From Staphylococcus phage VB_SavM_JYL01: a DNA stretch of 64,000 bases. Positions within the stretch are counted from its first letter, which is position 1. Each line of letters starts with the position of its first letter. Positions 41,167 through 64,000 of this stretch are shown here, piece after piece. A program made the position numbers and the translations under genes. The stretch is from the sequence record MH159197.1, one strand, 5' to 3'. The notes beneath the pieces are model-generated. The model worked only from the letters and a program-made list of their open reading frames with translations. It ran no database searches and was not told the origin of the DNA.

Positions 41167-41180
41167 ATAAATTTATAAAT

Positions 41181-41214
41181 ACCTGTTGACAACAGGTATT
41201 TTTTATAGTATACT
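41181..41214 (+). promoter_or_regulatory. terminator hairpin with embedded -35 (acctgtTGACAacaggt + attttttat), -10 TATACT
   Basis: ttgaca 41186-41191; 17-nt spacer; tatact 41209-41214. Confidence 0.6.
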
Positions 41215-41243: not shown

Positions 41244-41447
41244 ATGAATAACAAACAAATTGAAAGATTACACAAGAAAGCAAACGAGGTAGTAAGTAAA
41301 TCAGAAGATATTGAAGATTTAGGTTATGTGCAGGCACATAAAATTATTAAAGGATATCTTGATTTACCAGTGTCTGATTTTGAAAAGAGAGATGTAATGA
41401 CTGAATTACTATTAGCGTTAGATAAAGCTAATAAATCTATAGATTAA
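41244..41447 (+). CDS. hypothetical protein
   Basis: ORF track; promoter 41186-41214. Confidence 0.5.
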   Translation: MNNKQIERLHKKANEVVSKSEDIEDLGYVQAHKIIKGYLDLPVSDFEKRDVMTELLLALDKANKSID

Positions 41448-41462
41448 TAAGGGGGTAGTAAT

Positions 41463-41621
41463 ATGGTAGATATTATAATTTTAATTGTCGGTTTAATATT
41501 ATTTTTAGCTAGCGGATATAAATTAGTTTTAGGTAAATATTATGATAACACAGATTTAAAAATGTTATTTACAATCTTTGGTATCGGTACTATACTATTA
41601 CTTGTAGGATTTATATTATAA
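41463..41621 (+). CDS. small membrane protein (52 aa), not in ORF track
   Basis: SD aagggggtag upstream of ATG 41463; stop 41619-41621. Confidence 0.45.
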   Translation: MVDIIILIVGLILFLASGYKLVLGKYYDNTDLKMLFTIFGIGTILLLVGFIL

Positions 41622-41636
41622 AGGAGGAAATTATAA

Positions 41637-41861
41637 ATGAACTATAAAGAAGTACTAGAAGTTATTAAAAAGAATAAGCCATGTAAGGTTAGATTTACTG
41701 GAAGTATTTTAGCAATTGTTAATAAGGAATTTAACGCAGATACTGATAAAGGTGTGTTACAAATTGATGTATCAAATATTAATAAAAATGACTACATTAA
41801 GTTACAACAGTATTGTTTAGAAAGAGATGATTATACTGTAGCAGGAGCTATTTTATTTTAA
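41637..41861 (+). CDS. hypothetical protein
   Basis: ORF track; SD aaaggagga. Confidence 0.5.
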   Translation: MNYKEVLEVIKKNKPCKVRFTGSILAIVNKEFNADTDKGVLQIDVSNINKNDYIKLQQYCLERDDYTVAGAILF

Positions 41862-41873
41862 GGGGGAGTAATT

Positions 41874-42074
41874 ATGAATTATAGAGATTTTATTACGGAT
41901 TGTATTAGCGGGGGTTATAACGTCCACATTAGTGTTACTGAGAAAAGAGTTCATATTATTTCAGAAATGACATCAGCATCTTATCCGAAGAAAGAAATTA
42001 ATTTGGATGAACTGCAAGCTTATGTTTATTATATGAATAATTTTGGAAGTCAGATTACAACGGAGGGATTATAA
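41874..42074 (+). CDS. hypothetical protein
   Basis: ORF track; SD aagggggag. Confidence 0.5.
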   Translation: MNYRDFITDCISGGYNVHISVTEKRVHIISEMTSASYPKKEINLDELQAYVYYMNNFGSQITTEGL

Positions 42075-42365
42075 ATGGAATTAGTTATTAATATTATAGC
42101 AGTATTAATTGGTATGTACGGTATTTACTTTTATGTTACAAAATTTAGTACTGGTCTATCAGGTATTTTAATTGTACTAGGTATGGCTGTAGGTCTTTAC
42201 TTTTACTTAGATTACTTAAATGTTAGAGAGAATGTTATTCGATTAGTATCTGTAATGTTTGGTGCTTTCTTATTTAGTATCGAGATGATTTATAATAAGA
42301 TTATGTTCGAAATTAAAAAATCTAAGTATGATAAGACTGTTAGAACGTACAGAGGAGACCAATAA
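42075..42365 (+). CDS. membrane protein (3 TM)
   Basis: ORF track. Confidence 0.5.
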   Translation: MELVINIIAVLIGMYGIYFYVTKFSTGLSGILIVLGMAVGLYFYLDYLNVRENVIRLVSVMFGAFLFSIEMIYNKIMFEIKKSKYDKTVRTYRGDQ

Positions 42366-42457
42366 GAATTTTACTATAAAGAGTACTTAAAATAGGTTAA
42401 GTGCTCTATATGGTACCTTAAAATGGCTTAGAATTGAAATTAAGGAGATGAAAAGTT

Positions 42458-42751
42458 ATGTATCCTGATATAGGTGAGTTAGCTTATAAATTAAAAAGTA
42501 CTAGAGAAAGACTAGAAGGTATTATGATGGAGGAAGTTTGGGAAATACATCATAGAGAGACAGGAAAATTAGTTTTTAAAGGTGGATACTTAGAAGTAAA
42601 AGAAATATTAAGAAAAATGTATAAGGAGAATTTAACATTAGTAGATGTAGACACAATGTTAAATATCGGTCAAGGGTTTTTTGATGTTGCTAAAAGTATA
42701 TCAGCAGAAAATGTATTTCAAATAAACTATAAAAAGGAGTTACCACGATGA
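42458..42751 (+). CDS. hypothetical protein
   Basis: ORF track; SD taaggagatg. Confidence 0.5.
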   Translation: MYPDIGELAYKLKSTRERLEGIMMEEVWEIHHRETGKLVFKGGYLEVKEILRKMYKENLTLVDVDTMLNIGQGFFDVAKSISAENVFQINYKKELPR

Positions 42752-43656
42752 TTAAAGTATTTTCAGAAATGGATACAAAATATAGAACGATTGTACCGGA
42801 GAAATTCCCTAATGGAGAAATTAATTTTAAATATGATGACCTAAAATATTTAGTAGAAGGAGAACTATGGTTTGATGTTTTCTTTAAATGGGAAACTGAT
42901 GCAGACTTAATGCATTTGTATATGTTTACTAAGTATCTAGAACAATTAGGTATTAAAAATAATGTTTCCTTCCTGGAAATTGCATATTTACCTTATAGTA
43001 GAATGGATAGAGTAGAAAAAGGTCATAGCAATATGTTTAGTCTTAAGTATATTGCAGAATTTATTAACAATCTTAATTATAAATCTGTGTTAATAGCAGA
43101 AGCTCATAGCCCTGTCACAGAAAATCTAATTAAAAATTCTGTTTCTATAGGTGTCACACTTAAATTATTAGACCAATATATTGAAATGTCTGAAGAACCT
43201 GCAACAATTGTACTACCGGATAAGGGAGCTTATGACAGATACCTATCTGATGTGGAAGACATCTTAAGGGATTCCAATATTGAAAATTATTCAATTGTAT
43301 ATGGTGAAAAGAAACGTGATTTTGAAACAGGTAAAATTAAAGGTATTAAAATTGTTAAAGATAAAAATACTCTATATGATAACTGTATTATACTAGATGA
43401 TTTAACAAGTTATGGTGGTACATTTGTAGGTTGTAAAAAAGCCCTTGACAATCTTAAGGTAGATAATGTATCATTAATATTGACTCATGCAGAAAAAGTA
43501 TTTCAAGACGGTAAATTATTTGAGTCAGGATTTAAAGATATTATTGTAACAGACTCAATGTTACCTGATAATCAGTGGGAAAAAGCTATTGCTAAACATA
43601 GAGCACAAGAAAACGAAACAGAATTACAAATAAAGAGTATCGAAAGATATTTATAA
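42748..43656 (+). CDS. ribose-phosphate pyrophosphokinase (Prs)-like phosphoribosyl/ADP-ribosyl pyrophosphokinase
   Basis: 302 aa with Prs-family layout (N-domain, then PRPP-binding-loop-like region DDLTSYGGT); sits directly upstream of the NAMPT-like gene. Confidence 0.65.
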   Translation: MIKVFSEMDTKYRTIVPEKFPNGEINFKYDDLKYLVEGELWFDVFFKWETDADLMHLYMFTKYLEQLGIKNNVSFLEIAYLPYSRMDRVEKGHSNMFSLKYIAEFINNLNYKSVLIAEAHSPVTENLIKNSVSIGVTLKLLDQYIEMSEEPATIVLPDKGAYDRYLSDVEDILRDSNIENYSIVYGEKKRDFETGKIKGIKIVKDKNTLYDNCIILDDLTSYGGTFVGCKKALDNLKVDNVSLILTHAEKVFQDGKLFESGFKDIIVTDSMLPDNQWEKAIAKHRAQENETELQIKSIERYL

Positions 43657-43673
43657 AAGGAGAAGAATAAACT

Positions 43674-45143
43674 ATGCTAAATCCAACATTAATGTGTGAC
43701 TTTTATAAATTAAGTCACAGAGAACAATACCCTGAAGGTACAGAAATTGTATACAGTACACTTGTACCTAGAAGTAATAAGTACTATGAACATAGTGATA
43801 ATATTGTAGTATTTGGTATTCAATCACTTGTTAAAAAATATTTTATTGATATGTTTAATAAAGAATTCTTTAATAGACCTAAAGAGGAAGTTATTAATGA
43901 ATATAAACGTACAGTTAAATTCACATTAGGACAAGAAAACCCTGACGCTAAACATTTAGAGCAGTTACATGACCTAGGTTACTTACCTATTGATGTAAGA
44001 GCTTTAAAAGAAGGTACAGTAGTTCACCCTAATACACCTGTTATGACAATTGAAAATACCCACTCAGATTTCTTTTGGCTAACTAATTATTTAGAAACTA
44101 TTATTAGTACTCAAACATGGCAAGCAATGACTAGTGCTACACTAGCATATGATATGCGTAAAATGCTAGATAAGTATGCATTAGAAACAGTAGGTAATAT
44201 TGAAGCAGTAGATTTCCAAGGTCATGACTTTAGTATGCGTGGAATGAGTTCATTAGAAACAGCTCAATTAAGCTCTGCAGGACATGCAATTAGTTTTAAA
44301 GGTAGTGACACTGTACCTGTAGTAGACTTTTTAGAATCTTACTACAATGCAGATGTAGAAAAAGAAATGGTCGTTGCTTCCATCCCTGCTACCGAACATT
44401 CGGTTATGTGTGCAAATGGTGATTACGAGACAATGGATGAATATGAAACATACAAACGTATGTTAACAGAAATTTATCCAACAGGAGTATTCTCTATTGT
44501 ATCTGATACTTGGGATTTTTGGGGTAATATGACTAAAACTTTACCTAGATTAAAAGATATTATTATGGAACGTGACGGTAAAGTAGTAATCAGACCTGAT
44601 AGCGGAGACCCTGTTAAGATTATTTGTGGAGACCCTGATGCAGATACTGAGTATGAACGTAAAGGTGCTGTAGAAGTACTTTGGGATACTTTTGGAGGTA
44701 CTGAAACTGAAAAAGGATATAAAGTACTAGATGAACATGTAGGATTAATCTATGGTGATTCTATTAACTATGAGCGTGCTCAGCAAATTTGTGAAGGATT
44801 AAAAGAAAAAGGTTTTGCAAGTATTAACGTTGTATTAGGTGTAGGTAGCTTCTCTTACCAATTTAATACTCGTGATACTCATGGGTTTGCAATCAAAGCA
44901 ACATATGCTAAGATTAAAAATGAAGAGAAACTTATCTATAAGAATCCTAAAACAGACAGTGGGAAACGTTCACATAAAGGTAGAGTAGCTGTTTACAAAG
45001 ATGGTTCATGGGAAGATAACCTAACTCTTCATCAGTGGTTAAATAAACAAAATTTAAACCAATTAGAACGAGTATTTGAAGACGGTAAACTGTACAGAGA
45101 CCAGTCACTAAGTGAAATTAGAGAAAGAATTAAAAATAATTAA
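43674..45143 (+). CDS. nicotinamide phosphoribosyltransferase (NAMPT)-like enzyme
   Basis: 489 aa; type II PRTase NAMPT-like length and motifs (GSDTVPV, ATEHSVM, DSGDP). Confidence 0.7.
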   Translation: MLNPTLMCDFYKLSHREQYPEGTEIVYSTLVPRSNKYYEHSDNIVVFGIQSLVKKYFIDMFNKEFFNRPKEEVINEYKRTVKFTLGQENPDAKHLEQLHDLGYLPIDVRALKEGTVVHPNTPVMTIENTHSDFFWLTNYLETIISTQTWQAMTSATLAYDMRKMLDKYALETVGNIEAVDFQGHDFSMRGMSSLETAQLSSAGHAISFKGSDTVPVVDFLESYYNADVEKEMVVASIPATEHSVMCANGDYETMDEYETYKRMLTEIYPTGVFSIVSDTWDFWGNMTKTLPRLKDIIMERDGKVVIRPDSGDPVKIICGDPDADTEYERKGAVEVLWDTFGGTETEKGYKVLDEHVGLIYGDSINYERAQQICEGLKEKGFASINVVLGVGSFSYQFNTRDTHGFAIKATYAKIKNEEKLIYKNPKTDSGKRSHKGRVAVYKDGSWEDNLTLHQWLNKQNLNQLERVFEDGKLYRDQSLSEIRERIKNN

Positions 45144-45154
45144 TAAATATTTAA

Positions 45155-45192
45155 ACTCCCTATTGACAAAGGGAGTTTTTTATTATATAGTA
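45155..45192 (+). promoter_or_regulatory. terminator hairpin with -35 in the loop (aactccct-aTTGACAa-agggagtt + tttttatt), -10 TATAGT
   Basis: Follows the NAMPT-like gene stop. Confidence 0.6.
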
Positions 45193-45222
45193 TAACTATA
45201 GTAAATAAAGGAGTGAAAGAGA

Positions 45223-45467
45223 TGATTTATAAAATATCAAAACATAATTATTATAGTAGGTTTGAGTATTCTACTTACCCTCCTGATGAAGGGTTTGCGT
45301 ATGTAGATTATGTAGATGTGATTCTTATCGGTGTAGATAATCCTAAGAAAAAAAAGGTTATTACCTTAAAAGTAAATGAGTTCAATTCGGATGACTATAA
45401 AGTAGGTCATAAGTACAATATTATAAAAATACTATGGTTTGAAAAATGGGAATGGTTAAAGCCATAA
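45223..45467 (+). CDS. hypothetical protein
   Basis: ATG 45223, 8 nt after aaggag; the ORF-track start is a GTG inside the SD. Confidence 0.5.
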
Positions 45468-45486
45468 GTAAAAGGAGAGAAATAAA

Positions 45487-45879
45487 ATGATTATAGATAA
45501 ATTAAATGGAGTTAAACTAGAAATAAGCGGTCATGTCGTATCATTTAGTGTAAGAAAGTTTGATACAATTAATGGTGAGAGACAATTAATAGACTACCAT
45601 CATATTAAAAGAAATAGACAAAAGTACTTTAGAACTACTGAAGAATTTTATAATGAATATAAAGAAATTAAGCCTGACAAAAATGAAATAGATGAAATGT
45701 TTGAATCTCTAGGTTACGTAGATACTGAGTTAGATGATGTAGTAAGACACCTGGAAAAGGTTACTGAAATATTAGGAGTTAGTGAACAATATTTAAATCA
45801 GTTATCTTATAAAGCTATAGAAGAGTATGTAGATAAAGTAGTTACACTTGAAATTAAAGAGTTGAAAGGAGAGAAATAG
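45487..45879 (+). CDS. hypothetical protein
   Basis: ORF track; SD aaaggagag. Confidence 0.5.
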   Translation: MIIDKLNGVKLEISGHVVSFSVRKFDTINGERQLIDYHHIKRNRQKYFRTTEEFYNEYKEIKPDKNEIDEMFESLGYVDTELDDVVRHLEKVTEILGVSEQYLNQLSYKAIEEYVDKVVTLEIKELKGEK

Positions 45880-45880
45880 C

Positions 45881-46078
45881 ATGAATAATAACTGGGAAAA
45901 AGAAAGGGTTAACTATTGGGAAAACGAAGACTGTCCGAGGGAATACTTAGAAAAAGCATTCATTGACCTAGTAGAATATGTCGAAGGAGTTACAGTATCA
46001 TCTAAAGATGTTAAGCAGTTAAGAGAAGATAAACTTAGAGAAGATATTGGGTTTTATGAGTACGTAGCTGATAAATAA
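45881..46078 (+). CDS. hypothetical protein
   Basis: ORF track. Confidence 0.5.
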   Translation: MNNNWEKERVNYWENEDCPREYLEKAFIDLVEYVEGVTVSSKDVKQLREDKLREDIGFYEYVADK

Positions 46079-46084
46079 ATTAGT

Positions 46085-46122
46085 ATCTACCTATTGACTT
46101 AGGTAGATATCTATTATATAAT
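46085..46122 (+). promoter_or_regulatory. hairpin with -35 in the loop (atctaccta-TTGACT-taggtagat), -10 TATAAT
   Basis: ttgact 46094-46099; 17 nt; tataat 46117-46122. Confidence 0.6.
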
Positions 46123-46143
46123 AGTATACAAGGAGATGAAAAT

Positions 46144-53992: not shown

Positions 53993-54011
53993 TATAAAAA
54001 AGTTATATAAT

Positions 54012-54045
54012 TCCCTAGGATTAAATTCCTAGGGATTTTTATTTG
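54012..54045 (+). terminator. intrinsic terminator
   Basis: tccctagga-ttaaat-tcctaggga + ttttt. Confidence 0.6.
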
Positions 54046-54099
54046 TTTTAATTTATATAAAAAAATTATTTAATAAATAAATTAGTGTAAAATTGACTG

Positions 54100-54129
54100 T
54101 TGACAAGAATATATTTTTTATGGTATAAT
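54100..54129 (+). promoter_or_regulatory. promoter TTGACA-(17/18)-TATAAT heading a non-coding cassette
   Basis: ttgaca 54100-54105; ggtataatg. Confidence 0.55.
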
Positions 54130-54508
54130 GAAGTGAAGACCTTTTTTAGTATAAAAAAATTATTATATAAAAAAATTATATAAAAAAGTTTAGTTCCGGT
54201 CTTTCTCCCCACCTTGTCATATTTATAGTGGAAGGGTTAGGCGGGTTACCACTGTTTTACTTTCTATATATAGTATACTATGAATAATGGTAATTGTCAA
54301 CACCTTTCAGAAACTTTTTTTACTTTATTTTATTATTATATAAAAAAATTATACATATTTTAGGGCTCCACTTCCATTATATAATAATTCGGTCTTAATG
54401 TCAATACTTTTATTCAAAAAAGTTTTTTAAATTAGTTTCAACAAATCTATTGACTTATGTTTATTTCTATAGTAATATATAGTTATACCAACAAGGGAGG
54501 CAATACAA

Positions 54509-54667
54509 ATGCTAAAATTTAAATGGAAAAACAAAACAATCAAATCAACTCAAAAAACGGATAACATTCTTTTACTTCTTATAGGTGGTTTAGTTGCAAC
54601 AGTCACACCTAAACTTGTAAACTGGTTTTTACTACTACAAGATAATATAAATATTTTTTTAAGATAA
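54509..54667 (+). CDS. 52-aa membrane micro-protein, not in ORF track
   Basis: aagggagg 8 nt upstream of ATG 54509; promoter ttgact...taatat upstream. Confidence 0.45.
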   Translation: MLKFKWKNKTIKSTQKTDNILLLLIGGLVATVTPKLVNWFLLLQDNINIFLR

Positions 54668-54670
54668 CTA

Positions 54671-54699
54671 TTGACAACTTAGAAACAACGTGTTAATAT
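54671..54699 (+). promoter_or_regulatory. promoter TTGACA-17-TAATAT; transcript begins with a GGAAGCGG-ttga-CCGCTTCC hairpin
   Basis: ttgaca 54671-54676; taatat 54694-54699; hairpin 54716-54735. Confidence 0.6.
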
Positions 54700-54765
54700 T
54701 AAGATACAAGGTAAGGGAAGCGGTTGACCGCTTCCGACCTAAATAAAAAAAGTTTAAAAAAACTA

Positions 54766-54794
54766 TTGACAGTCACTTGAAACCATGATATTAT
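54766..54794 (+). promoter_or_regulatory. second tandem promoter TTGACA-17-TATTAT
   Basis: ttgaca 54766-54771. Confidence 0.5.
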
Positions 54795-54833
54795 TAAGAT
54801 AACAAAAAACAAACAGAAAAGGAATTGATTATA

Positions 54834-55157
54834 ATGAAATTTATCAAAACTATCGAAAACTTATTAGAAAAAGCAGAAAACAAAGGGCAAGCAATTTTAA
54901 ACGGTCGTTACTTTGATGGGTATAGCAAAGGTGAGCTTGAGGAAAAATATGCAATTGAAATTGATGGCAACAAATTGATTATGCGTCACTGGGGTACACA
55001 AACAATTGAGATTGATTTAAGCATAAATGAGATTGTTTCATATTACGGTGAAAGCAATTCAGACCGTGACAGTTTAAACACACTTGTATATTGCTTAGGA
55101 ATTGCGCCAAACTTTAGATACTTACCAAGCAAAAACTTATTCATTTACGAAAATTAA
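54834..55157 (+). CDS. hypothetical protein
   Basis: Tandem promoters 54671-54699 and 54766-54794; leader GGAATTGATTATAATG. Confidence 0.55.
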   Translation: MKFIKTIENLLEKAENKGQAILNGRYFDGYSKGELEEKYAIEIDGNKLIMRHWGTQTIEIDLSINEIVSYYGESNSDRDSLNTLVYCLGIAPNFRYLPSKNLFIYEN

Positions 55158-55256
55158 TTAAATAAAGGGCTTGACTTCCAAGCCCTACCATGTTATTATT
55201 AAATTGTAAGGTAATCAAGCACAACGACAAAATAAACTGAAAAGGGATTGATGAAA

Positions 55257-55763
55257 ATGACAAATAATAAGGATTTTAATAAAAATTTCTTAAGACTACT
55301 AAAAGTTAAAAATGTAAATGACAAAAGGGTGCAAGGTTTCATAAACAAGCATGACATTAAACTTAAAGACAAAGAAGAAAGCTCACAAGGATATGTTAAC
55401 GTATTATATAAGGGTTATGACTTTGTAATATCAAAAGACTATGCAGGTCAAACGGCGTTATATGTTAACATGCGTAATTTAGGGGTTGACTACAAACATT
55501 TTAAACATTTAGATTTTAATAATATTGTTCAAGCGTTAGACAGAAAAAATAATAATCGTGTTGAATGTAAGGAAACAAAAACACAACAATATAAAGAATT
55601 TAAACACCGTCAAAAGACAGAAAAAGAAATGTTAACATACTATGAAAAGGATATCGAAAAGCTAAAAGAAGAACTGGAACGAACACAAAAAATCTACAAT
55701 GATAAAATAAAGAAAATAGAAAATTACGATAAAAAAATATCTAGACTAAAAAAATCAAAATAA
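55257..55763 (+). CDS. hypothetical Lys-rich coiled-coil protein
   Basis: Leader GGGATTGATGAAAATG; start could also be 55251. Confidence 0.5.
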   Translation: MTNNKDFNKNFLRLLKVKNVNDKRVQGFINKHDIKLKDKEESSQGYVNVLYKGYDFVISKDYAGQTALYVNMRNLGVDYKHFKHLDFNNIVQALDRKNNNRVECKETKTQQYKEFKHRQKTEKEMLTYYEKDIEKLKEELERTQKIYNDKIKKIENYDKKISRLKKSK

Positions 55764-55832
55764 GGCTTGACACTTTCAAGCCCTCATGATATACTTAGTA
55801 TAACAAATCAAAAAGAAAAGGAATTGATGAAA

Positions 55833-56213
55833 ATGTTCAAATTACAAAATAAAGTGGAAATTATCGTACCTAAGGAAGATAACAACGGCGTTGAGATTGC
55901 AGACAAACGTATTAAAGAATATGTAAATAGCATCACAATGGAAGCGGGTGGTTGTACTATTACAGAAATCAAAGGGCAATGGTACTCAGAAGATGAAAAA
56001 CGTATAATGGAAGATAACAACTTAAATCTTGAGTGGTACTACATGCAAGACAGTGCCAAATTCATGACAGTTGAATTAAAAGGCATTGTAAGACGTTTAA
56101 TTGAAGTTTACGGACAAGAAGCAATAAGCATTAAAGTTAACGGCACATTGTACATTGTAGACCAATCAGACATTGAAGAATTACACACAACATTATTAAA
56201 TATCATGAAATAA
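55833..56213 (+). CDS. hypothetical protein
   Basis: Leader GGAATTGATGAAAATG; start could also be 55827; terminator 56226-56266 follows. Confidence 0.5.
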   Translation: MFKLQNKVEIIVPKEDNNGVEIADKRIKEYVNSITMEAGGCTITEIKGQWYSEDEKRIMEDNNLNLEWYYMQDSAKFMTVELKGIVRRLIEVYGQEAISIKVNGTLYIVDQSDIEELHTTLLNIMK

Positions 56214-56225
56214 AAAATTTATATA

Positions 56226-56266
56226 AACCGCTTCGGATTAAATTCTTGAAGTGGTTATTTTCTTTT
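56226..56266 (+). terminator. intrinsic terminator (stem built on a CCGCTTC element)
   Basis: aaccgcttc-(13 nt)-gaagtggtt + attttcttttaaat. Confidence 0.55.
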
Positions 56267-56590
56267 AAATTAGTGCTTGACAAATGTACTAAAAAATGAG
56301 ATAATGAAGTGAACGCATTTTTTAGTATAAAAATAATATTATATAAAAAAATTATATAAATGAATTTATTTCAGGTCTTTCCCGTAACCCCTCTTGGGCT
56401 ACCCTGGTATCTCTACAATTATTATTATACTATAGGTCATGAAGATTGTCAATAACTTTCTTCAAAATAATTTATTTAAAAAAGTTTCATAAATCTATTG
56501 ACTTACTATTAATTATGGTGTAATATATAGATATAAGGTTAAGGAAGCGGAACACCTAAAAAAGAAATTAAAAAAACTTTTAAAAAGGTG

Positions 56591-56619
56591 TTGACAAACT
56601 TCAAACCACATGTTAATAT
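56591..56619 (+). promoter_or_regulatory. promoter TTGACA-17-TAATAT
   Basis: ttgaca 56591-56596; taatat 56614-56619. Confidence 0.6.
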
Positions 56620-56655
56620 TAAGATAACAAATAAAACAAAAAGGAATTGATAATT

Positions 56656-56877
56656 ATGAACAGATTAGAAATAATAAAAGACACGGCAATGGAATACATC
56701 ATTATGATGGATAACGGAGTTATGGACGGACAATTGACACAAGAAGAATACAACGAAGCGGTTAGCTTTGAAAAGGTTTACGATTACACTTTATCAGAAG
56801 CAAATCAAGAATGTAAATTCTTAGGCGGTAAAATTTTAACTTTCCTAGTACATGAAGCAATTGAAGAATACGCATAA
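56656..56877 (+). CDS. hypothetical protein
   Basis: Promoter 56591-56619; leader GGAATTGATAATTATG. Confidence 0.55.
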   Translation: MNRLEIIKDTAMEYIIMMDNGVMDGQLTQEEYNEAVSFEKVYDYTLSEANQECKFLGGKILTFLVHEAIEEYA

Positions 56878-56958
56878 AAAAACTTAATCAAAGGGGTTGA
56901 CATTCAACCCCTTACCATGTTAATATTAATATATACCAAATGAGAGGAATTGATAATT

Positions 56959-57096
56959 ATGAGATACGAAATCGTAACATTAGTTAATGGAGAATTATTC
57001 ATGTTTGCAACATTTAAGAAAGCAGAGGCAGAAAATAAATATCAAGAATGGTGTGACTTGTACGGTCAAGAAAATGTAAGCATGGAAAAAAATTAA
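56959..57096 (+). CDS. 45-aa protein, not in ORF track
   Basis: Promoter gttgacattcaacccctt...taatat; leader GGAATTGATAATTATG; stop 57094-57096. Confidence 0.45.
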   Translation: MRYEIVTLVNGELFMFATFKKAEAENKYQEWCDLYGQENVSMEKN

Positions 57097-57166
57097 AATA
57101 AGGGGTTGACACTTAACCCCTTAGATGTTATTATTAATATATACTAAAGAAAAGGAAATGATAAAA

Positions 57167-57403
57167 ATGAAATTATTAAACCAAGAAAATGAAATCGTAA
57201 AAGAAATGGTAACTTTTAGAGACGTAAAACAAGCCCTAATTTGGGAATACATCGACCACATAGATAATAACATCCTAAACAATGAAATTCATGACACAGA
57301 AGCGGTTGTGGTTACTTCTGAGACTCTACAATCAATCAAATTTGCAGACACTATGGAAGACCTGCAGGAATACATTGCAGATATCAATTGGAAATTAGTT
57401 TAA
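57167..57403 (+). CDS. hypothetical protein
   Basis: Promoter gttgacacttaacccctt...tattat; leader GGAAATGATAAAAATG. Confidence 0.5.
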   Translation: MKLLNQENEIVKEMVTFRDVKQALIWEYIDHIDNNILNNEIHDTEAVVVTSETLQSIKFADTMEDLQEYIADINWKLV

Positions 57404-57497
57404 AAAAAGTTTTAAATAACTGTTGACACCTTAGCAAATAGATGGTAATATAAGAGTATAAAGAAAAACAAAAAAAAACGAAAAGGATTTGATTATA

Positions 57498-57842
57498 ATG
57501 ACAAACTTACTAAACACTATTGAGATGGATTTTGAATACTATGGAGTACAATTTGAAAATGGATGGAAACACAATGCCTACACTGTAGAGCTAACACATA
57601 ATGGAGTTACCGAAGAATTTGACTGGAAACAAGGAATAGGAATTCACGAAGAGCCTGAACTAGAAAGCATCTTAGAAAGCTTAATGCTAGATATTCATTA
57701 CTATGAAGAAGATATTTATTCAATGTATGAGGACGAAGAACAGGCAGAAAAAATAATTGAGAAGTTAGAAGAACAAACTAAAAAGGTAAATAAACTATTT
57801 ACAGATGAGGAACAAGCAGACCTAGTTGAATACTTTGAATAG
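57498..57842 (+). CDS. hypothetical acidic protein
   Basis: Promoter ttgacacc...ggtaatat; leader GGATTTGATTATAATG; palindrome hairpin 57867-57890 after the stop. Confidence 0.55.
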   Translation: MTNLLNTIEMDFEYYGVQFENGWKHNAYTVELTHNGVTEEFDWKQGIGIHEEPELESILESLMLDIHYYEEDIYSMYEDEEQAEKIIEKLEEQTKKVNKLFTDEEQADLVEYFE

Positions 57843-57916
57843 TATCAGGAAACACACAGAGACCCACAGAAGCGGATTAATCCGCTTCTAATATAATTAA
57901 TCAGGAGATGTTAAAG

Positions 57917-58081
57917 ATGACAATTAAAGAGGTTATAAGCCAATTAGAATTAGTAGAAAATAAAGAACTTGAATTGTACGTATGCGACAAGGAAAATAAT
58001 AACATTTCAATTAATGATATTATTTTGTTCGATAGTGAAGCAGAGCACACAGAAAACAACCCACTAGGGATTAATTATTAG
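57917..58081 (+). CDS. 54-aa protein, not in ORF track
   Basis: Leader GGAGATGTTAAAGATG; stop TAG 58079-58081. Confidence 0.4.
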   Translation: MTIKEVISQLELVENKELELYVCDKENNNISINDIILFDSEAEHTENNPLGINY

Positions 58082-58093
58082 GAGATGTTGAAC

Positions 58094-58267
58094 ATGAACA
58101 CAAGAAGGGTAAACAAAGCGTTAAACGAAGCAGTTAGATTATTAGACAAGCAAATAGCAGACACACAGAAAACAATGCAGGAGTTAAATAAACAACTAGA
58201 ACAACAGATAAAAGCTAAGCAGGAGCTAATGACATTAGTTGATGCTATGACTGGTGATGATGAGTAA
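58094..58267 (+). CDS. small coiled-coil protein
   Basis: Leader GGAGATGTTGAACATG; ORF-track frame from 58085. Confidence 0.45.
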   Translation: MNTRRVNKALNEAVRLLDKQIADTQKTMQELNKQLEQQIKAKQELMTLVDAMTGDDE

Positions 58268-58536
58268 TGAACGTTAGAGAGGTTCATGATGTCGTTAAGA
58301 GTGCAAAGAGCAAACTCCTGCAGGAGCAGAATAATATTAATAATGTAATGATATATGAATACATCACAGAAGAGCTTCACAGACGCACACAGAGAAGCGG
58401 AACAATACAGATGAACAATAACACCGCTTCATATAGTAATGGCTCATATGGTAGCTTAGAAGAGCTTAGAGAAGCTTATGACCTCTCTTCTCTATCTACT
58501 GATGAGATTAAAGAACTACTTGAAACATTTGTTTAA
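58267..58536 (+). CDS. hypothetical protein
   Basis: ORF track; ATGA overlap. Confidence 0.5.
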   Translation: MNVREVHDVVKSAKSKLLQEQNNINNVMIYEYITEELHRRTQRSGTIQMNNNTASYSNGSYGSLEELREAYDLSSLSTDEIKELLETFV

Positions 58537-58620
58537 ATTATTTTATCAAAACGCTTTACAATCTTTTAGTTTGTATGATATAATGAACTTAACAAATTAA
58601 AAGAAAAGGAAATGATGAAC

Positions 58621-58842
58621 ATGAGAGACTTACAAGAGAGAAAAAGAGAATTAAAAACATTACTATTTAACTTAGCCATAGAGAAGAATAGAGCAACGGA
58701 TGAGCAGTTAAGAGAAGTATTAGAACAATCACATCAAGAAGTGATGTATCAATTAAATAAAGTTAGAAAAGAAATTGAAATTTTAGTTGAAGAAAAAGAA
58801 AGAGAATTTTGGAATGATTTCGATTTTAATGGATTAGATTAA
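58621..58842 (+). CDS. hypothetical coiled-coil protein
   Basis: Leader GGAAATGATGAACATG; terminator 58842-58870 follows. Confidence 0.5.
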   Translation: MRDLQERKRELKTLLFNLAIEKNRATDEQLREVLEQSHQEVMYQLNKVRKEIEILVEEKEREFWNDFDFNGLD

Positions 58843-58870
58843 GAGGGAATAAAATCCCTCTTTTATTTTT
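58842..58870 (+). terminator. intrinsic terminator ending the rightward small-gene block
   Basis: agaggga-ataaaa-tccctct + tttattttt. Confidence 0.65.
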
Positions 58871-59004
58871 ATCCTATTATATAATTTTTTTATATTATAC
58901 GGGGGCAGGGGTAAAATGCCACTCAATGGGGGTGGGTCTATATACCCCTACGGTCTACCCAGGTACTTATTTTTTGGGGAAAATTATGAAAATAAATATT
59001 TAAA

Positions 59005-59126
59005 AGTCAACACATAAAATATAGAAAGTAAGTCAACATCCCTTATAATAAGTCAACATTATAACCTTACTTGGTAAGTCAACAATTTATAGTACAAATA
59101 TAAAGCCTCTAAATATAAAGTCAACA
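59005..59126 (+). repeat. five direct copies of AGTCAACA (iteron-like) in the convergent intergenic region
   Basis: Copies at 59005, 59031, 59051, 59077, 59119. Confidence 0.8.
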
Positions 59127-59129
59127 TAT

Positions 59130-59160
59130 ATAAAATAAGAAGAGAGGTATATCCTCTCCT
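59130..59160 (-). terminator. minus-strand intrinsic terminator ending the leftward operon
   Basis: gagagg-tatat-cctctc hairpin; on the minus strand it is followed by tcttatttta. Confidence 0.55.
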
Positions 59161-59167
59161 CTCTTAA

Positions 59168-59458
59168 CTAGATAAGTACGATTCTATTATTTAGTTCCTG
59201 TTCTATTCTATTTAAATGCTCCCAAACCTCAATCCAGTTTACTCTTGAATCATCATAATAAAGGTGGAAATCTTGAGGGTTTTCTAAATATGCTTCTAGT
59301 TCATCATAGTATAGAACATCAAAAGCTGTGTCATCAAGACCTATTTGAATCTTTAGTATATCTCTATATCCTAATTGTTTATTACCGCAATAAGCTGTAT
59401 CTTCTAACCGCTTCTCTAGTTTATTAAATAGTGTTTGTATACCTTGTAGTTCATTCAT
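59168..59458 (-). CDS. hypothetical protein (first gene of the leftward-transcribed arm)
   Basis: ORF track; minus-strand terminator at 59130-59160 just past its stop. Confidence 0.55.
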   Translation of the reverse strand: MNELQGIQTLFNKLEKRLEDTAYCGNKQLGYRDILKIQIGLDDTAFDVLYYDELEAYLENPQDFHLYYDDSRVNWIEVWEHLNRIEQELNNRIVLI

Positions 59459-59547
59459 AATGTATGACCTCCTAATTGATTATATACTTAGTATAAAGGA
59501 TAGGTGTTAGAATGTCAACCTTTATATATAAAAAAAGAGAAAGAATA

Positions 59548-59796
59548 TTATTCTTCCTCTAAGGTATTACTAATAACTTCTAATTCATGAATAGTAATCA
59601 TATCCATTCTATCGAATCCTCTTGGGTCTCCTTTAATGAACTCTTGTTCTCCTCTATGGGTTATACTTTCTTTGTATCCTTCTTCTTTAATACGTTTAAT
59701 TAAGTTCTCCTTATTTGTGTATATCTCATCTTCCCTGAAATGGAAATTATCTTCATAAGGTTCACAATTATCGTGTTCTACTTGATATAGTTTCAT
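59548..59796 (-). CDS. hypothetical protein
   Basis: ORF track. Confidence 0.5.
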   Translation of the reverse strand: MKLYQVEHDNCEPYEDNFHFREDEIYTNKENLIKRIKEEGYKESITHRGEQEFIKGDPRGFDRMDMITIHELEVISNTLEEE

Positions 59797-59811
59797 ATTA
59801 GTTATCCTCCT

Positions 59812-60057
59812 TTACTCTCTATAATAATCATATATTTCTAAGTAAGGTGAGAATGGTGAGTCACCTCTAGTATTAATAATAACTTCTCCCTCTTTGTTAC
59901 TTAACTCTATAAGCTCTTCTAAGCTATTAATTTCTACACACCAACGTTCTATAGTAAATGGATTACCTTTTTGGTCTACACGTTCTAATTCCTTTATATA
60001 GGCACCTTCTATAGGCTTTTTATTAATTGTGCTTGTTCTATCTATAAAAAATTCCAT
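59812..60057 (-). CDS. hypothetical protein
   Basis: ORF track. Confidence 0.5.
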   Translation of the reverse strand: MEFFIDRTSTINKKPIEGAYIKELERVDQKGNPFTIERWCVEINSLEELIELSNKEGEVIINTRGDSPFSPYLEIYDYYRE

Positions 60058-60073
60058 TAGTTACCCTCCTTTT

Positions 60074-60262
60074 TTAAAATTTAATAACTACTTCTATCTT
60101 TACACTAGGTTCTTTTTGTTTTGCTAATTGTTTTGCAATTAAATCTTTATTTTTTAGTTCTTCTTGTATTTCATACATAGACTTCATGCTTAATCCTCCT
60201 TTATATTCTCTTCTAATATTTGTTTTAATGTTTGACAATCTTTTTGGTCTAGGGTGTCCCAA
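60074..60262 (-). CDS. hypothetical small protein (start uncertain)
   Basis: ORF track; overlaps 60190..60432 in another frame. Confidence 0.35.
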   Translation of the reverse strand: MGHPRPKRLSNIKTNIRREYKGGLSMKSMYEIQEELKNKDLIAKQLAKQKEPSVKIEVVIKF

Positions 60263-60432
60263 CTCTCTAGATTCTGTAATTGATAGTGGAGTTCATTTGC
60301 AATTTCATCGAAGGCTTTTGCTTTTTGATAGACTTCTTGTAACTCTTCTAATTCTTTTTCATTATCAATACACCAGTAGTTCTCGTTGTCAGTTATAATA
60401 TCTTGAATTTTATTTTTATATTCATAAGCCAT
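60190..60432 (-). CDS. hypothetical acidic protein
   Basis: ORF track. Confidence 0.5.
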   Translation of the reverse strand: MAYEYKNKIQDIITDNENYWCIDNEKELEELQEVYQKAKAFDEIANELHYQLQNLESWDTLDQKDCQTLKQILEENIKED

Positions 60433-60623
60433 TATTTATCCCTCCTATCTTCTATCCTTTGTTTTATCTCTTCTCTCTTGCGGTGGTGTTCTTTACTCAT
60501 TTCTTTACGTTCCTTATTTGTTAATCTTATTCTATAAATAAGGTAATTAATATATAATGTTCCGGCTGACCATAGTAGTAGAAATGATATTAGGTAAGTC
60601 CATGAGACACTTATTTCTATCAT
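60432..60623 (-). CDS. small membrane protein
   Basis: ORF track. Confidence 0.5.
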   Translation of the reverse strand: MIEISVSWTYLISFLLLWSAGTLYINYLIYRIRLTNKERKEMSKEHHRKREEIKQRIEDRRDK

Positions 60624-61105
60624 TGTGAGCCCTCCTTATATTCTTTATAACTTTTAATAACAATCTTACAGATACCTCTATTAACAGCTAAGAATAACAT
60701 AAATAATAATAAAGTTATAACTGCTCTAATGTCTCCTGTAAAAGGTAATAATTTAAATAGTAAAACACTTTCTAAAATACTTGTAGCTGTAATAATTGTA
60801 AGATATAAGATAGATAGTAAATAATCTTTTAATTTTAGTTTAACGAAAGGTTTTTTATTATCTTGTGTTCTTACTATACCATATAGAATTATAAACCATG
60901 CAACAGGTATGAGCTGAGTTATAAAGTCATTGTTTATGCCTAATGCATATAAACCATAAATGATACCCGCAGGAATACCAATAATGAATGCTAAGAATAC
61001 AGAGAATATAATTAGCATTATAGGAAGAGCTACAAGTAATCCTAATCCTTGTATTGAATACTCTAGTGTATTCTTTCCTAAGGCTTTAAAGAATGTTTTA
61101 TTCAT
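60620..61105 (-). CDS. multi-pass membrane protein (4-5 TM)
   Basis: ORF track. Confidence 0.55.
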   Translation of the reverse strand: MNKTFFKALGKNTLEYSIQGLGLLVALPIMLIIFSVFLAFIIGIPAGIIYGLYALGINNDFITQLIPVAWFIILYGIVRTQDNKKPFVKLKLKDYLLSILYLTIITATSILESVLLFKLLPFTGDIRAVITLLLFMLFLAVNRGICKIVIKSYKEYKEGSQ

Positions 61106-61352
61106 CTTCTACCTCCTTGTAATATACAGTATCTATATGAGTAATATTATCTTTAAACCATAGAGATGTATCCCCTTTGTTAGACTCTAAAGTTTTAGCA
61201 CCATTAAAAACAAGACCCTCAATAAAAGAATTTAAATTAGTTTTAGTATCTTTTTGTTGTACAATAATAGAAGACCCTGATACATCACAAATTCTTATAA
61301 AATTAATATCTTTTTTTATTTCTTTTTCTACTTTATTATTTTTAAATATCAT
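61098..61352 (-). CDS. hypothetical protein
   Basis: ORF track. Confidence 0.5.
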   Translation of the reverse strand: MIFKNNKVEKEIKKDINFIRICDVSGSSIIVQQKDTKTNLNSFIEGLVFNGAKTLESNKGDTSLWFKDNITHIDTVYYKEVEDE

Positions 61353-61810
61353 TATAATTCCCCCTCTATATAATCAACTGTTTTAATATACTCACTATTT
61401 TTTAGTACCTTTTTCACATTTTCACTAATAAATTTTTCTTGCTCTATTTCATCTATTTTTGTCTGTATTCTAAGATACAACACTTTGGGAACACATGAAG
61501 GGTTTTCTAGCTCTTCTTCTGTAACTGAGTCGGTAAAACTTGCCATATCATCATTAGCTAGAATAAGACAATCTGTTATTCTAGTCAATTCCTCTCCATC
61601 AGGTTTATAATATATAACTTCATAAATCTCTTCATTTTTAAATAACTCCTCACGAGGTATTCTTCTAGAGGTAAAGCTATAACCATTTTTAAAGGTGATA
61701 ATTGTATTTTGAGTTTCTCTTAAAAATACTCTTAAAGTATTTTCAAAAATATCCCATTTTTTCTTTTCTTCATCTGTTATAGTTATATTTTCCTTGCTTT
61801 TTTTAAACAT
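61352..61810 (-). CDS. hypothetical protein
   Basis: ORF track. Confidence 0.5.
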   Translation of the reverse strand: MFKKSKENITITDEEKKKWDIFENTLRVFLRETQNTIITFKNGYSFTSRRIPREELFKNEEIYEVIYYKPDGEELTRITDCLILANDDMASFTDSVTEEELENPSCVPKVLYLRIQTKIDEIEQEKFISENVKKVLKNSEYIKTVDYIEGEL

Positions 61811-61815
61811 CGTTA

Positions 61816-62247: not shown

Positions 62248-62262
62248 TTTAACTCTCCTTTT

Positions 62263-62757: not shown

Positions 62758-62769
62758 AATATCTCTCCT

Positions 62770-63878: not shown

Positions 63879-64000
63879 TTAATCTCCTCCTTACTGTATA
63901 TAACTATCTTACCATACTTAGTAAAAAAAGTCAATAAAAAAACACCTATTTGAATTAATAGGTGTTTTAGTATTTACTTATATGTTATTTTAATAGGGAT

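What the first reader, a model, noticed from the sequence alone, without database searches (positions are those of the whole stretch)
42748..45143. Adjacent Prs-like and NAMPT-like genes: candidate NAD+ reconstitution (NARP1-type) counter-defence pair, plus a NADAR gene in the left arm
A 302-aa ribose-phosphate-pyrophosphokinase-family gene sits 17 nt upstream of a 489-aa nicotinamide-phosphoribosyltransferase-family gene. The pair is followed by a terminator-promoter hairpin, making it a two-gene unit. Such phage pairs have classically been annotated as nucleotide or NAD salvage. Recent work showed that a Prs-like/NAMPT-like pair converts ADP-ribose to ADPR-pyrophosphate and then to NAD+, rebuilding NAD+ destroyed by Thoeris, DSR, SEFIR and other NADase defences. 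The minus-strand NADAR/YbiA gene (62263..62757) points to additional ADP-ribose/NAD-related chemistry encoded by the same phage.
Basis: partly seen in the sequence, partly recalled or inferred. Interest (0 to 1): 0.55.

Follow-up and report, generated by a model that had tools for sequence, protein, structure and literature searches.

The report
Known NAD+-rebuilding gene pair in Kayvirus
This Staphylococcus phage carries the two-enzyme NARP1 pathway that rebuilds NAD+ after bacterial defences destroy it, but the same genes in near-identical phages were already listed in the 2024 paper that discovered the pathway, so the finding is correct and not new.

Summary
The window is a Kayvirus, 100% identical to vB_SauM-SDQ at this locus.

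Sequence tests place the pair in NARP1 (Adps + Namat), not in canonical Prs/NAMPT.
- The 489-aa protein is 60% identical to crystallised SPbetaL1 Namat. It carries the Namat-specific motif (GSFSYQFNTRD) with both clamp aromatics.
- The 302-aa protein sits in a 100%-bootstrap subclade with the validated Bacillus-phage Adps enzymes. It keeps the catalytic Lys and fails every curated Prs cutoff.

This is already known. Osterman et al. list phage K, G1, G15 and other Kayviruses in their Adps table with a neighbouring Namat, and label their Namats "Adps-associated". I found no experimental test in Staphylococcus.

Corrections:
- Transcription probably starts about 1.5 kb upstream and includes five small ORFs.
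- NADAR lies about 17 kb away in an opposite-strand block and is unlinked.

New detail: Kayvirus Metroid lacks exactly window 42748..45221 (both genes plus the hairpin), with ATGATT at both edges. That makes it a natural NARP1-less control.

The parts
41177..41214 (+). Upstream terminator/promoter hairpin (11-bp stem at 41177..41201, TTGACA in the loop, TATACT ending at 41214). Likely start of the transcript that reads into adps-namat.
   Evidence: RNA fold -11.1 kcal/mol, z = -3.3.
41463..42365 (+). Four small co-oriented ORFs of unknown function (41463..41621, 52 aa; 41637..41861, 74 aa; 41874..42074, 66 aa; 42075..42365, 96 aa, membrane-like).
   Evidence: PHROGs of unknown function. No significant Pfam hit.
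42366..42457 (+). Intergenic stem-loop of about 18 bp with no U-tract. Role unknown.
   Evidence: -22.7 kcal/mol, z = -4.07. Conserved in 4 Kayviruses with no real covariation. Replaced by a hairpin promoter in phage Golestan-105-M.
42458..42751 (+). 97-aa ORF whose stop overlaps the adps start (ATGA). Unknown function (phrog_1099).
   Evidence: Found only in Staphylococcus phages (179 records).
42748..43656 (+). adps: ADP-ribose pyrophosphate synthetase, a PRPS-like enzyme (302 aa).
   Evidence: 38% identity and 136 bits to validated SPbetaL1 Adps, against 20% and 45 bits to E. coli Prs. Sits in a Firmicute-phage Adps subclade with 100% bootstrap. Conserves K188, R85, H120, D158, D217, D218, F226 and F20. 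Falls below all NCBIfam Prs cutoffs.
43674..45143 (+). namat: nicotinamide ADP-ribose transferase, a NAMPT-like enzyme (489 aa).
   Evidence: 664 bits to PDB 9W5X/9W5W (SPbetaL1 Namat), against about 228 bits to human NAMPT. 60% identity to SPbetaL1 Namat. Carries the motif GSFSYQFNTRD, and all NAM, NMN and catalytic residues are conserved.
45153..45191 (+). Terminator hairpin (45153..45178) with an embedded promoter (-35 TTGACA at 45163, -10 TATAGT ending at 45191).
42748..45221 (.). 2,474-bp presence/absence cassette (adps + namat + hairpin), bounded by ATGATT at both edges. Absent from Kayvirus Metroid.
   Evidence: Metroid aligns to window 41446..42753 and then jumps to 45222..46140. Only 1 of 135 records has the cassette-less junction.
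62263..62757 (-). NADAR-domain gene (164 aa). A separate left-arm gene, not part of the NARP1 unit.
   Evidence: Pfam NADAR 136 bits. PDB 8BAU 85 bits against YbiA 28 bits. Lies in the minus-strand block beyond the terminal-repeat region.

Best explanation
The pair is a Kayvirus copy of NAD+ reconstitution pathway 1 (NARP1). When a host NADase defence (SIR2, TIR or SEFIR effectors, for example in Thoeris, DSR or SIR2-HerA systems) splits NAD+ into ADP-ribose and nicotinamide, two steps follow.
1. The 302-aa PRPS-like enzyme (Adps) uses ATP to pyrophosphorylate the terminal ribose of ADP-ribose, giving ADPR-PP.
2. The 489-aa NAMPT-like enzyme (Namat) swaps that pyrophosphate for nicotinamide, giving NAD+ directly.

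Shown here: homology, clade membership, conservation of catalytic and specificity residues, gene order and adjacency, and cassette structure. Inferred from characterised homologues (SPbetaL1, Bas63, FADO, ICP1): the actual substrates and the counter-defence phenotype in Staphylococcus.

The genes are probably transcribed from a hairpin-embedded promoter near 41.2 kb together with five small ORFs, ending at the hairpin at 45153..45178.
For: - Namat homology: the best PDB match is SPbetaL1 Namat (9W5X/9W5W) at 664 bits, against about 228 bits for human NAMPT (entry identity confirmed). Identity is 60% to SPbetaL1, 48% to ICP1 and 43% to Bas63 Namat.
- Namat signature: the published motif GS-X-phi-X-phi-X-phi-TRD (PMC12774641) is present as GSFSYQFNTRD, with aromatics F393 and F397. 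Human NAMPT, 7YQO and a NARP2-type Nampt have G/A and K/D at those positions.
- Namat core: all NAM, NMN and catalytic residues are conserved (D9, Y11, F186, R189, D212, A239, H242, R307, D309).
- Adps homology: closest to the biochemically validated SPbetaL1 Adps at 38% identity and 136 bits, against 45 bits to E. coli Prs.
- Adps tree: in a neighbour-joining tree with 200 bootstraps, phage Adps form a clade (88.5%) that excludes three canonical Prs. The window protein falls in a 100% subclade with SPbetaL1 and FADO Adps.
- Adps residues: the catalytic Lys (K188, equal to SPbetaL1 K162 and ICP1 K185) and R85, H120, D158, D217, D218, F226 and F20 are conserved. The PP loop DDLTSYGGTF matches SPbetaL1's DDLSSFGGTF rather than the Prs form DDMIDTGGT(L/I).
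- Canonical Prs thresholds: the protein fails all of them, at best 76 bits against 113. Validated SPbetaL1 Adps also fails.
- Gene order: adps is followed by namat with a short gap, as in SPbetaL1, ICP1 and Bas63.
- Published catalogue: phage K, G1, G15 and other Kayviruses appear in the Adps/Prs table with 'Namat within 10 genes: Yes', and the G1 and G15 Namats are labelled 'Adps-associated'. G15 proteins are 96.4% and 99.6% identical to the window's.
- Phage restriction: no close relative was found in 185k bacterial species genomes.
Against: - No biochemical or genetic data exist for any Kayvirus copy.
- 38% identity to the nearest validated Adps is a moderate basis for inferring substrate specificity.
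- Some residues named in the structural papers differ. Namat clamp-loop R40 is Lys (K36), although Lys also occurs in the in-vivo-validated Bas63 Namat and in the ICP1 Namat. ICP1 Adps F92 and D216 have no counterpart, although the same is true of validated SPbetaL1 Adps.
- The reported 'loss of the C-terminal alpha11-alpha12 module' could not be confirmed. The protein has a tail of about 33 aa after the last conserved motif.
- Namat enzymes keep PRPP-to-NMN activity in vitro (PMC12774641).
- Metroid shows the cassette is dispensable for growth on its isolation host.
Confidence: 0.84

Rival explanations
1. Classical salvage as annotated. The first enzyme is a true PRPP synthase and the second a true nicotinamide phosphoribosyltransferase. 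Together they make NMN, which host enzymes then convert to NAD+ or which feeds nucleotide synthesis.
For: - GenBank annotations of nearly all Kayviruses say so.
- The NAMPT-like protein passes NCBIfam NF006629 at 566 bits against a cutoff of 405.
- Namat enzymes keep PRPP-dependent NMN synthesis in vitro.
- The PRPS acceptor-site residues are retained.
Against: - The Prs-like protein fails every curated Prs cutoff.
- It lies in the phage Adps clade away from canonical Prs.
- Its PP loop is the Adps type.
- The NAMPT-like protein has the adenine clamp that canonical and NARP2 Nampts lack.
- Validated SPbetaL1 Namat passes NF006629 too, so that model does not discriminate.
- No NMN adenylyltransferase-like neighbour was seen within the adjacent genes.
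- In Bas63 the same annotation was shown experimentally to be wrong.
Confidence: 0.05
2. The chemistry is NARP1 (ADP-ribose plus nicotinamide to NAD+), but its main role in Kayviruses is general NAD+ upkeep during infection rather than countering a defence system. It might recycle ADP-ribose released by ADP-ribosylation turnover, or supply the phage's own NAD+-dependent enzymes.
For: - The pair is nearly universal in Kayviruses whatever the host: about 195-200 Staphylococcus phage records, with only one cassette-less junction in 135.
- Chromosomal NARP1 homologues in bacteria have been suggested to be housekeeping (PMC11724313).
- The phage also encodes another ADP-ribose-handling enzyme, NADAR.
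Against: - In every system tested, the pathway acts only when a defence NADase produces ADP-ribose, and deleting it gives a defence-specific phenotype.
- The discovery paper notes that ADP-ribose is normally scarce in uninfected cells.
- The cassette is dispensable in Metroid.
Confidence: 0.09

Closest known systems
NARP1 of Bacillus phage SPbetaL1 (Adps WIT26982.1 / Namat WIT26983.1; Namat structures 9W5X and 9W5W)
   Same: - Same gene order with tight adjacency.
- Namat is 60% identical and carries the same clamp motif.
- Adps is 38% identical, with the same catalytic Lys and the same Firmicute-type PP loop DDL(S/T)S(F/Y)GGTF.
- Both Adps fall below the canonical Prs cutoffs.
   Different: - The window Adps is 30 aa longer, with an N-terminal extension and a longer C-terminal tail.
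- Namat clamp-loop R40 is Lys.
- SPbetaL1 is a temperate phage; this is a lytic myovirus.
- The SPbetaL1 enzymes are biochemically proven; these are not.
NARP1 of E. coli phage Bas63 (gp79-80) and Bacillus phage FADO
   Same: Same two-gene architecture. These are the copies with in-vivo deletion phenotypes. Bas63 Namat also has Lys at the clamp-loop position.
   Different: Only 28% (Adps) and 43% (Namat) identical to Bas63. Bas63 Namat is 593 aa with an insertion, and its PP loop is the Gram-negative type DDICDGG-TF.
Vibrio phage ICP1 Adps (gp228; apo, substrate-bound and product-bound structures, PMC13586617)
   Same: Catalytic Lys (K185 to K188), R87, H121, D161, D212 and D213, the adenine-capping Phe (F221 to F226) and F18 (to F20) are conserved.
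   Different: 28% identity. ICP1 F92 and D216 have no counterpart. ICP1 ends about 17 residues after the last core motif, while the window protein has about 33 more.
NARP2 (Vibrio phage KVP40 Nampt + Nmnat)
   Same: A NAMPT-family enzyme used by a phage to restore NAD+.
   Different: NARP2 Nampt prefers PRPP and pairs with an NMN adenylyltransferase rather than a PRPS-like gene. A NARP2-type sequence lacks the clamp aromatics. The Kayvirus Namats in the published table are labelled 'Adps-associated'.
Extended NARP1 operons: NARP1-AP (Macro-domain phosphatase Adpp) and RyDEP-containing NARP1
   Same: The core Adps and Namat genes.
   Different: No Macro or RyR (PF02026) domain was detected in the flanking ORFs. 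This is a core two-enzyme version, so it would be predicted not to counter aRES-type cleavage.
Canonical class I ribose-phosphate pyrophosphokinase (Prs) and nicotinamide phosphoribosyltransferase (NAMPT)
   Same: Same folds and the same catalytic-core residues.
   Different: The Prs-like protein fails the curated family cutoffs and has an altered PP loop. The NAMPT-like protein has the adenine clamp.

Membership tests
NARP1 (Adps + Namat) | Adps belongs to the phage clade that is separate from cellular Prs | tested here: met
   In a neighbour-joining tree with 200 bootstraps, the phage Adps clade (88.5%) excludes E. coli, Sulfolobus and Mycobacterium Prs. The window protein sits in a 100% subclade with SPbetaL1 and FADO Adps. 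Bit scores are 136 to SPbetaL1 Adps against 45 to E. coli Prs.
NARP1 (Adps + Namat) | Adps catalytic Lys (ICP1 K185 / SPbetaL1 K162) and the acceptor-site residues R87, H121, D161, D212 and D213 | tested here: met
   K188, R85, H120, D158, D217 and D218 align to these positions.
NARP1 (Adps + Namat) | Remodelled PP loop / donor site conserved among Adps homologues | tested here: met
   DDLTSYGGTF matches the validated SPbetaL1 (DDLSSFGGTF) and FADO forms. F226 equals the ICP1 adenine cap F221, where Prs has L or I. It differs from the ICP1 form DDICDGAASF, so this is a lineage variant.
NARP1 (Adps + Namat) | Loss of the PRPS C-terminal alpha11-alpha12 module | tested here: inconclusive
   The protein has about 33 residues after the last core motif, against about 17 in ICP1 and about 43 in E. 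coli Prs. The alignment in this region is unreliable. No structure model was made.
NARP1 (Adps + Namat) | ICP1 Adps adenine-stacking residues F18 and F92 | tested here: inconclusive
   F18 aligns to F20. F92 has no counterpart, and none exists in validated SPbetaL1 Adps either. This feature is probably not family-defining.
NARP1 (Adps + Namat) | namat immediately next to adps (97% of the Adps clade) | tested here: met
   Same strand, 17-nt gap, adps first. SPbetaL1, ICP1 and Bas63 have the same order.
NARP1 (Adps + Namat) | Namat keeps the Nampt-like catalytic core (SPbetaL1 D13, Y15, F189, R192, D215, A242, H245, R306, D308) | tested here: met
   The window has D9, Y11, F186, R189, D212, A239, H242, R307 and D309.
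NARP1 (Adps + Namat) | Namat clamp-helix signature GS-X-phi-X-phi-X-phi-TRD with aromatics at positions 3 and 7 | tested here: met
   GSFSYQFNTRD with F393 and F397. Human NAMPT has GGGLLQKLTRD, 7YQO has GGALLQKVDRD, and a NARP2-type sequence has GGGMATADMDRD (motif definition).
NARP1 (Adps + Namat) | Namat clamp-loop Arg40 stacking on adenine | tested here: inconclusive
   Lys (K36) is present instead of Arg. Lys also occurs in Bas63 (validated in vivo) and in ICP1 Namat, and the loop is described as variable.
NARP1 (Adps + Namat) | Enzyme activities: ADP-ribose + ATP to ADPR-PP, then ADPR-PP + nicotinamide to NAD+ | not testable with these tools
   This needs purified proteins and LC-MS. No published data were found for any Kayvirus copy.
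NARP1 (Adps + Namat) | Rescues the phage from NAD+-depleting defences | not testable with these tools
   No Kayvirus experiment was found. The staphylococcal Thoeris study does not mention Kayviruses or NARP.
Canonical ribose-phosphate pyrophosphokinase (Prs) | Reaches the curated family score cutoffs | tested here: not met
   TIGR01251 scores 76 bits against a cutoff of 113. The equivalog models score at most 68 bits against cutoffs of 296 or more. Pfam PF13793 scores 17 bits against 25.
NARP2 (Nampt + Nmnat) | PRPP-preferring Nampt clade without the adenine clamp, partnered with an NMN adenylyltransferase | tested here: not met
   The clamp is present and the partner is a PRPS-like gene. No adenylyltransferase was recognised in the adjacent ORFs. 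The rest of the phage genome was not scanned.
NARP1-AP / RyDEP-extended NARP1 | Macro-domain phosphatase (Adpp) or RyR-domain glycosidase (PF02026) within the operon | tested here: not met
   No Pfam hit in the flanking ORFs, even at E <= 10 for four upstream ORFs and one downstream ORF. Sensitivity at HHpred level was not reproduced.
NADAR superfamily (side claim) | NADAR domain above threshold, with the conserved catalytic Glu/Lys and the Glu/Asp/Trp set | tested here: met
   Pfam NADAR scores 136 bits against a cutoff of 35. The alignment to 8BAU conserves the SEQ Glu, the Lys, and the E..D..W residues (residue roles). The actual substrate is not testable here.

The most novel reading that the evidence does not exclude
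The ORFs co-transcribed with adps-namat may be Kayvirus-specific accessory factors. The strongest candidate is the 97-aa ORF (42458..42751), whose stop overlaps the adps start. Such a factor could widen what NARP1 can use or counter, as Macro-domain Adpp and RyR-domain RyDEP do in other phages, or it could be an unrelated new anti-defence gene riding in the same early transcript.
Probability: 0.06. Interest if true: 0.5.

Novelty: already known. Interest (0 to 1): 0.18.

Why it matters
Kayviruses are among the main therapeutic phages against S. aureus. Carrying NARP1 would let them ignore a whole class of NAD+-depleting defences, which could contribute to their broad host range. That idea has been implicit in the literature since 2024, because these very genes are listed in the NARP1 homologue tables. 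What remains open is experimental proof in staphylococci. The one useful addition here is practical. The genes and their hairpin form a clean 2.47-kb cassette, and phage Metroid is a natural isolate that lacks exactly this cassette.

Tried and rejected
- Accessory genes: I looked for Macro/Adpp and RyR/RyDEP domains in the flanking ORFs. Pfam found none, even at E <= 10 for the five ORFs searched at that threshold.
- The 97-aa upstream ORF: I tested whether it travels with adps outside Kayviruses. It occurs only in Staphylococcus phages, so its linkage cannot be separated from common descent.
- Intergenic hairpin at 42366..42457: I tested it for covariation. It is conserved but almost invariant, so the test is uninformative.
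- Expression timing: two Kayvirus transcriptome papers do not mention these genes in their main text.
- Experimental evidence: searches for Kayvirus NARP1 tests and for Kayvirus tests against staphylococcal Thoeris found nothing.
- PDB 9KE8/9KEO: this is the second-best Namat-like hit, with a deviating motif (GAQTYQRNTRD). No paper describing it was found.
- NCBIfam: it has no Adps- or Namat-specific model. Its 'nicotinate phosphoribosyltransferase' model accepts validated Namat too, so it cannot discriminate.
- Heavy searches: I did not run the large protein-database searches or structure prediction, because they would not have changed the verdict.
- N-terminal alignment error: the first MAFFT alignment misplaced ICP1 F18. 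A local-pair alignment corrected it.
Full report
**Observation.** The window holds ORFs at 42748..43656 (+, 302 aa) and 43674..45143 (+, 489 aa), both starting at ATG and separated by 17 nt. Each has an AGGAG-type ribosome-binding site upstream. The first matches the PHROG 'ribose-phosphate pyrophosphokinase' at 294 bits. The second matches 'nicotinamide phosphoribosyl transferase' at 729 bits, and Pfam NAPRTase and NAMPT_N. Pfam alone barely detects the Prs relationship: 17 bits against a cutoff of 25. A 9-bp hairpin followed by a T-run lies at 45153..45178. TTGACA sits in its loop and TATAGT lies 17 nt downstream. It folds at -12.3 kcal/mol, z = -3.4. The NADAR ORF is at 62263..62757 (-). 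All stated coordinates are correct.

**Source.** The locus is 100% identical to Staphylococcus phage vB_SauM-SDQ and 98.6% identical to GH15 (G15) and many other Kayviruses. In GH15 the genes are ORF202 and ORF203, annotated as putative Prs and NAMPT. The GH15 proteins are 96.4% and 99.6% identical to the window's. Phage K Adps is 82.5% identical.

**Is the NAMPT-like protein a Namat?**
- Against all PDB chains, the top hits are 9W5X and 9W5W at 664 bits, against about 228 bits for human NAMPT.
- These entries are the SPbetaL1 Namat-nicotinamide and Namat-NAD+ structures (PMC12774641).
- That paper defines a Namat-specific 'selectivity clamp'. It consists of a helix motif GS-X-phi-X-phi-X-phi-TRD, whose aromatics at positions 3 and 7 stack on the adenine of ADPR-PP, plus a variable loop carrying Arg40.
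- The window protein has GSFSYQFNTRD, with F393 and F397. Human NAMPT, PDB 7YQO and a NARP2-type ('Nmnat-associated') phage Nampt have G/A and K/D at those two positions.
- All nicotinamide-binding, NMN-binding and catalytic residues are conserved.
- The loop Arg is Lys (K36) here. It is also Lys in Bas63 Namat, which is validated in vivo, and in ICP1 Namat.

**Is the Prs-like protein an Adps?**
- By BLASTP it is closest to SPbetaL1 Adps at 38% identity and 136 bits. That is the enzyme shown to pyrophosphorylate ADP-ribose. Next come Listeria phage A511 (32%), Bas63 (28%), ICP1 (28%) and E. coli Prs (20%, 45 bits).
- In a bootstrapped distance tree the phage proteins form a clade (88.5%) that excludes E. 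coli, Sulfolobus and Mycobacterium Prs. The window protein and phage K sit in a 100% subclade with SPbetaL1 and FADO. FADO is the phage whose NARP1 deletion sensitises it to DSR2.
- The catalytic lysine (SPbetaL1 K162, ICP1 K185) is K188 here. R85, H120, D158, D217, D218, F226 and F20 align with the ICP1 residues R87, H121, D161, D212, D213, F221 and F18.
- The PP loop is DDLTSYGGTF. This is the SPbetaL1/FADO type, distinct from the Prs form DDMIDTGGT(L/I).
- The protein falls below every NCBIfam Prs cutoff, at best 76 bits against 113. Validated SPbetaL1 Adps behaves the same way, at 106 against 113.
- Two published ICP1 features are absent (F92 and D216). They are equally absent from SPbetaL1 Adps.
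- The reported loss of the C-terminal alpha11-alpha12 module could not be judged from sequence.
- Adps retains the ancestral PRPS acceptor-site residues.

**Prior knowledge.**
- Supplementary Table 1 of Osterman et al. (bioRxiv 10.1101/2024.02.11.579819) lists phage K, G1, A5W, ISP, S25-3, phiSA12, phiSA039, G15 and others with 'Namat within 10 genes: Yes'.
- Table 2 of the same paper labels the G1 and G15 Namats 'Adps-associated'.
- AntiDefenseFinder carries NARP1 models.
- I found no experiment on a Kayvirus copy and no Kayvirus test against staphylococcal Thoeris.
- The pair is therefore an already catalogued NARP1 member whose function in Staphylococcus rests on homology.

**Mechanism.** By analogy with SPbetaL1, Bas63, FADO and ICP1, Adps converts ADP-ribose and ATP into ADPR-PP. 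Namat then joins ADPR-PP and nicotinamide to give NAD+. Together they undo NAD+ cleavage by SIR2, TIR or SEFIR effectors. No Macro-domain Adpp or RyR-domain RyDEP accessory is present. This is the core version, which would not be expected to handle aRES-type products.

**Unit structure.**
- Hairpins with a -35 box in the loop and a -10 box 17 nt downstream recur ten times on the + strand of the window. The ones flanking the pair are at 41177..41214 and 45153..45191.
- No promoter-like site lies directly upstream of adps. Its ATG overlaps the stop of a 97-aa ORF (42458..42751, phrog_1099, no Pfam hit).
- The predicted transcript therefore carries five small ORFs plus adps-namat.
- A strong stem-loop without a U-tract lies at 42366..42457 (-22.7 kcal/mol, z = -4.1). 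It may subdivide the unit. It is conserved but nearly invariant. In phage Golestan-105-M a typical hairpin promoter occupies that spot.

**Cassette.** Kayvirus Metroid has the same neighbouring genes but no adps-namat. It aligns to window 41446..42753 and then jumps to 45222..46140. The missing 2,474 bp (42748..45221) is adps + namat + the hairpin, and both edges read ATGATT. Only Metroid among 135 matching records has this junction, yet its flanks are 96-99% identical to those of cassette-bearing phages. A recent precise deletion is the simplest reading.

**NADAR.**
- The gene lies beyond the terminal-repeat region in the left-arm minus-strand block, about 17 kb from the pair.
- It matches PDB 8BAU, an entry cited in the Schuller et al. 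NADAR structure paper, at 85 bits, against E. coli YbiA at 28 bits. It keeps the catalytic Glu/Lys and the Glu/Asp/Trp set.
- Phage and orphan NADARs remove ADP-ribose from guanine in DNA and counter DarT1. NCBIfam's generic model names the domain a riboflavin-intermediate N-glycosidase.
- Nothing links this gene to NARP1.

**Distribution.** Adps-like genes occur in 1,316 phage records, 195 of them from Staphylococcus. Namat-like genes occur in 2,020 records, 197 from Staphylococcus. A pattern-based scan of 185,579 bacterial species genomes, which reaches only close relatives, found just two distant hits and none in Staphylococcus.

**Verdict.** The feature is already known, so interest is low.

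Noticed in passing
window 42748..45221; L012 (Metroid MT411892.1) 2232..2782: Kayvirus Metroid lacks exactly adps + namat + the terminator/promoter hairpin. The junction falls at the two start codons, and both edges read ATGATT. It is the only one of 135 matching records with this junction. This looks like a natural precise deletion.
   Followed up: yes
window 45213..45467: The ORF after the hairpin most likely starts at ATG 45222 (81 aa), not at the GTG 45213 that the ORF lister reports. Metroid's homologue starts at the equivalent ATG, and the alignment begins there.
   Followed up: yes
window + strand: 28645, 33407, 37846, 41177, 45153, 46083, 55166, 56270, 56891, 57099: Ten hairpins carry TTGAC(A/T) in or at the loop and a -10-like hexamer 17-18 nt downstream. 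This is a recurrent combined terminator/promoter design between gene blocks.
   Followed up: partly
window 42366..42457: A strong stem-loop of about 18 bp (-22.7 kcal/mol, z = -4.1) without a U-tract lies between the fourth small ORF and the 97-aa ORF. It is conserved in GH15, K and Metroid with almost no variation. Its role is unknown.
   Followed up: partly
L011 (Golestan-105-M LC648442.1) 323..400: In this S. saprophyticus phage the equivalent intergenic spot holds a typical hairpin promoter (CTCTACCTATTGACATGGGTAGAG, then TATACT) instead of the long stem-loop.
   Followed up: no
window 42458..42751: A 97-aa ORF (phrog_1099, no Pfam hit) has a stop that overlaps the adps start. It is confined to Staphylococcus phages (179 records). 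In Metroid it is coupled in the same way to the 81-aa ORF.
   Followed up: partly
window 63171..63878 (-): A calcineurin-like metallophosphatase (Pfam Metallophos, 72 bits) lies two genes from NADAR. It is annotated as a Ser/Thr or NinI-like phosphatase in related phages.
   Followed up: partly
window 54000..64000: The window runs from the right arm through the terminal-repeat region into the left-arm minus-strand block. The repeat region has several short ORFs with TTG starts and 'MIIM' N-termini, each preceded by a hairpin promoter. The 100%-identical GenBank record is permuted differently.
   Followed up: partly
PDB 9KE8/9KEO (external): An undescribed 'nicotinamide phosphoribosyltransferase' structure scores 532 bits to the window Namat. 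Its motif is GAQTYQRNTRD, with no aromatic at positions 3 and 7. No paper describing it was found.
   Followed up: partly
L007 (Acetoanaerobium sp. MAG JBHASY010000096.1) 1413..2009: This is the only bacterial-genome relative of the window Adps above 30% identity (35% over residues 76-279). Its neighbours were not examined.
   Followed up: no
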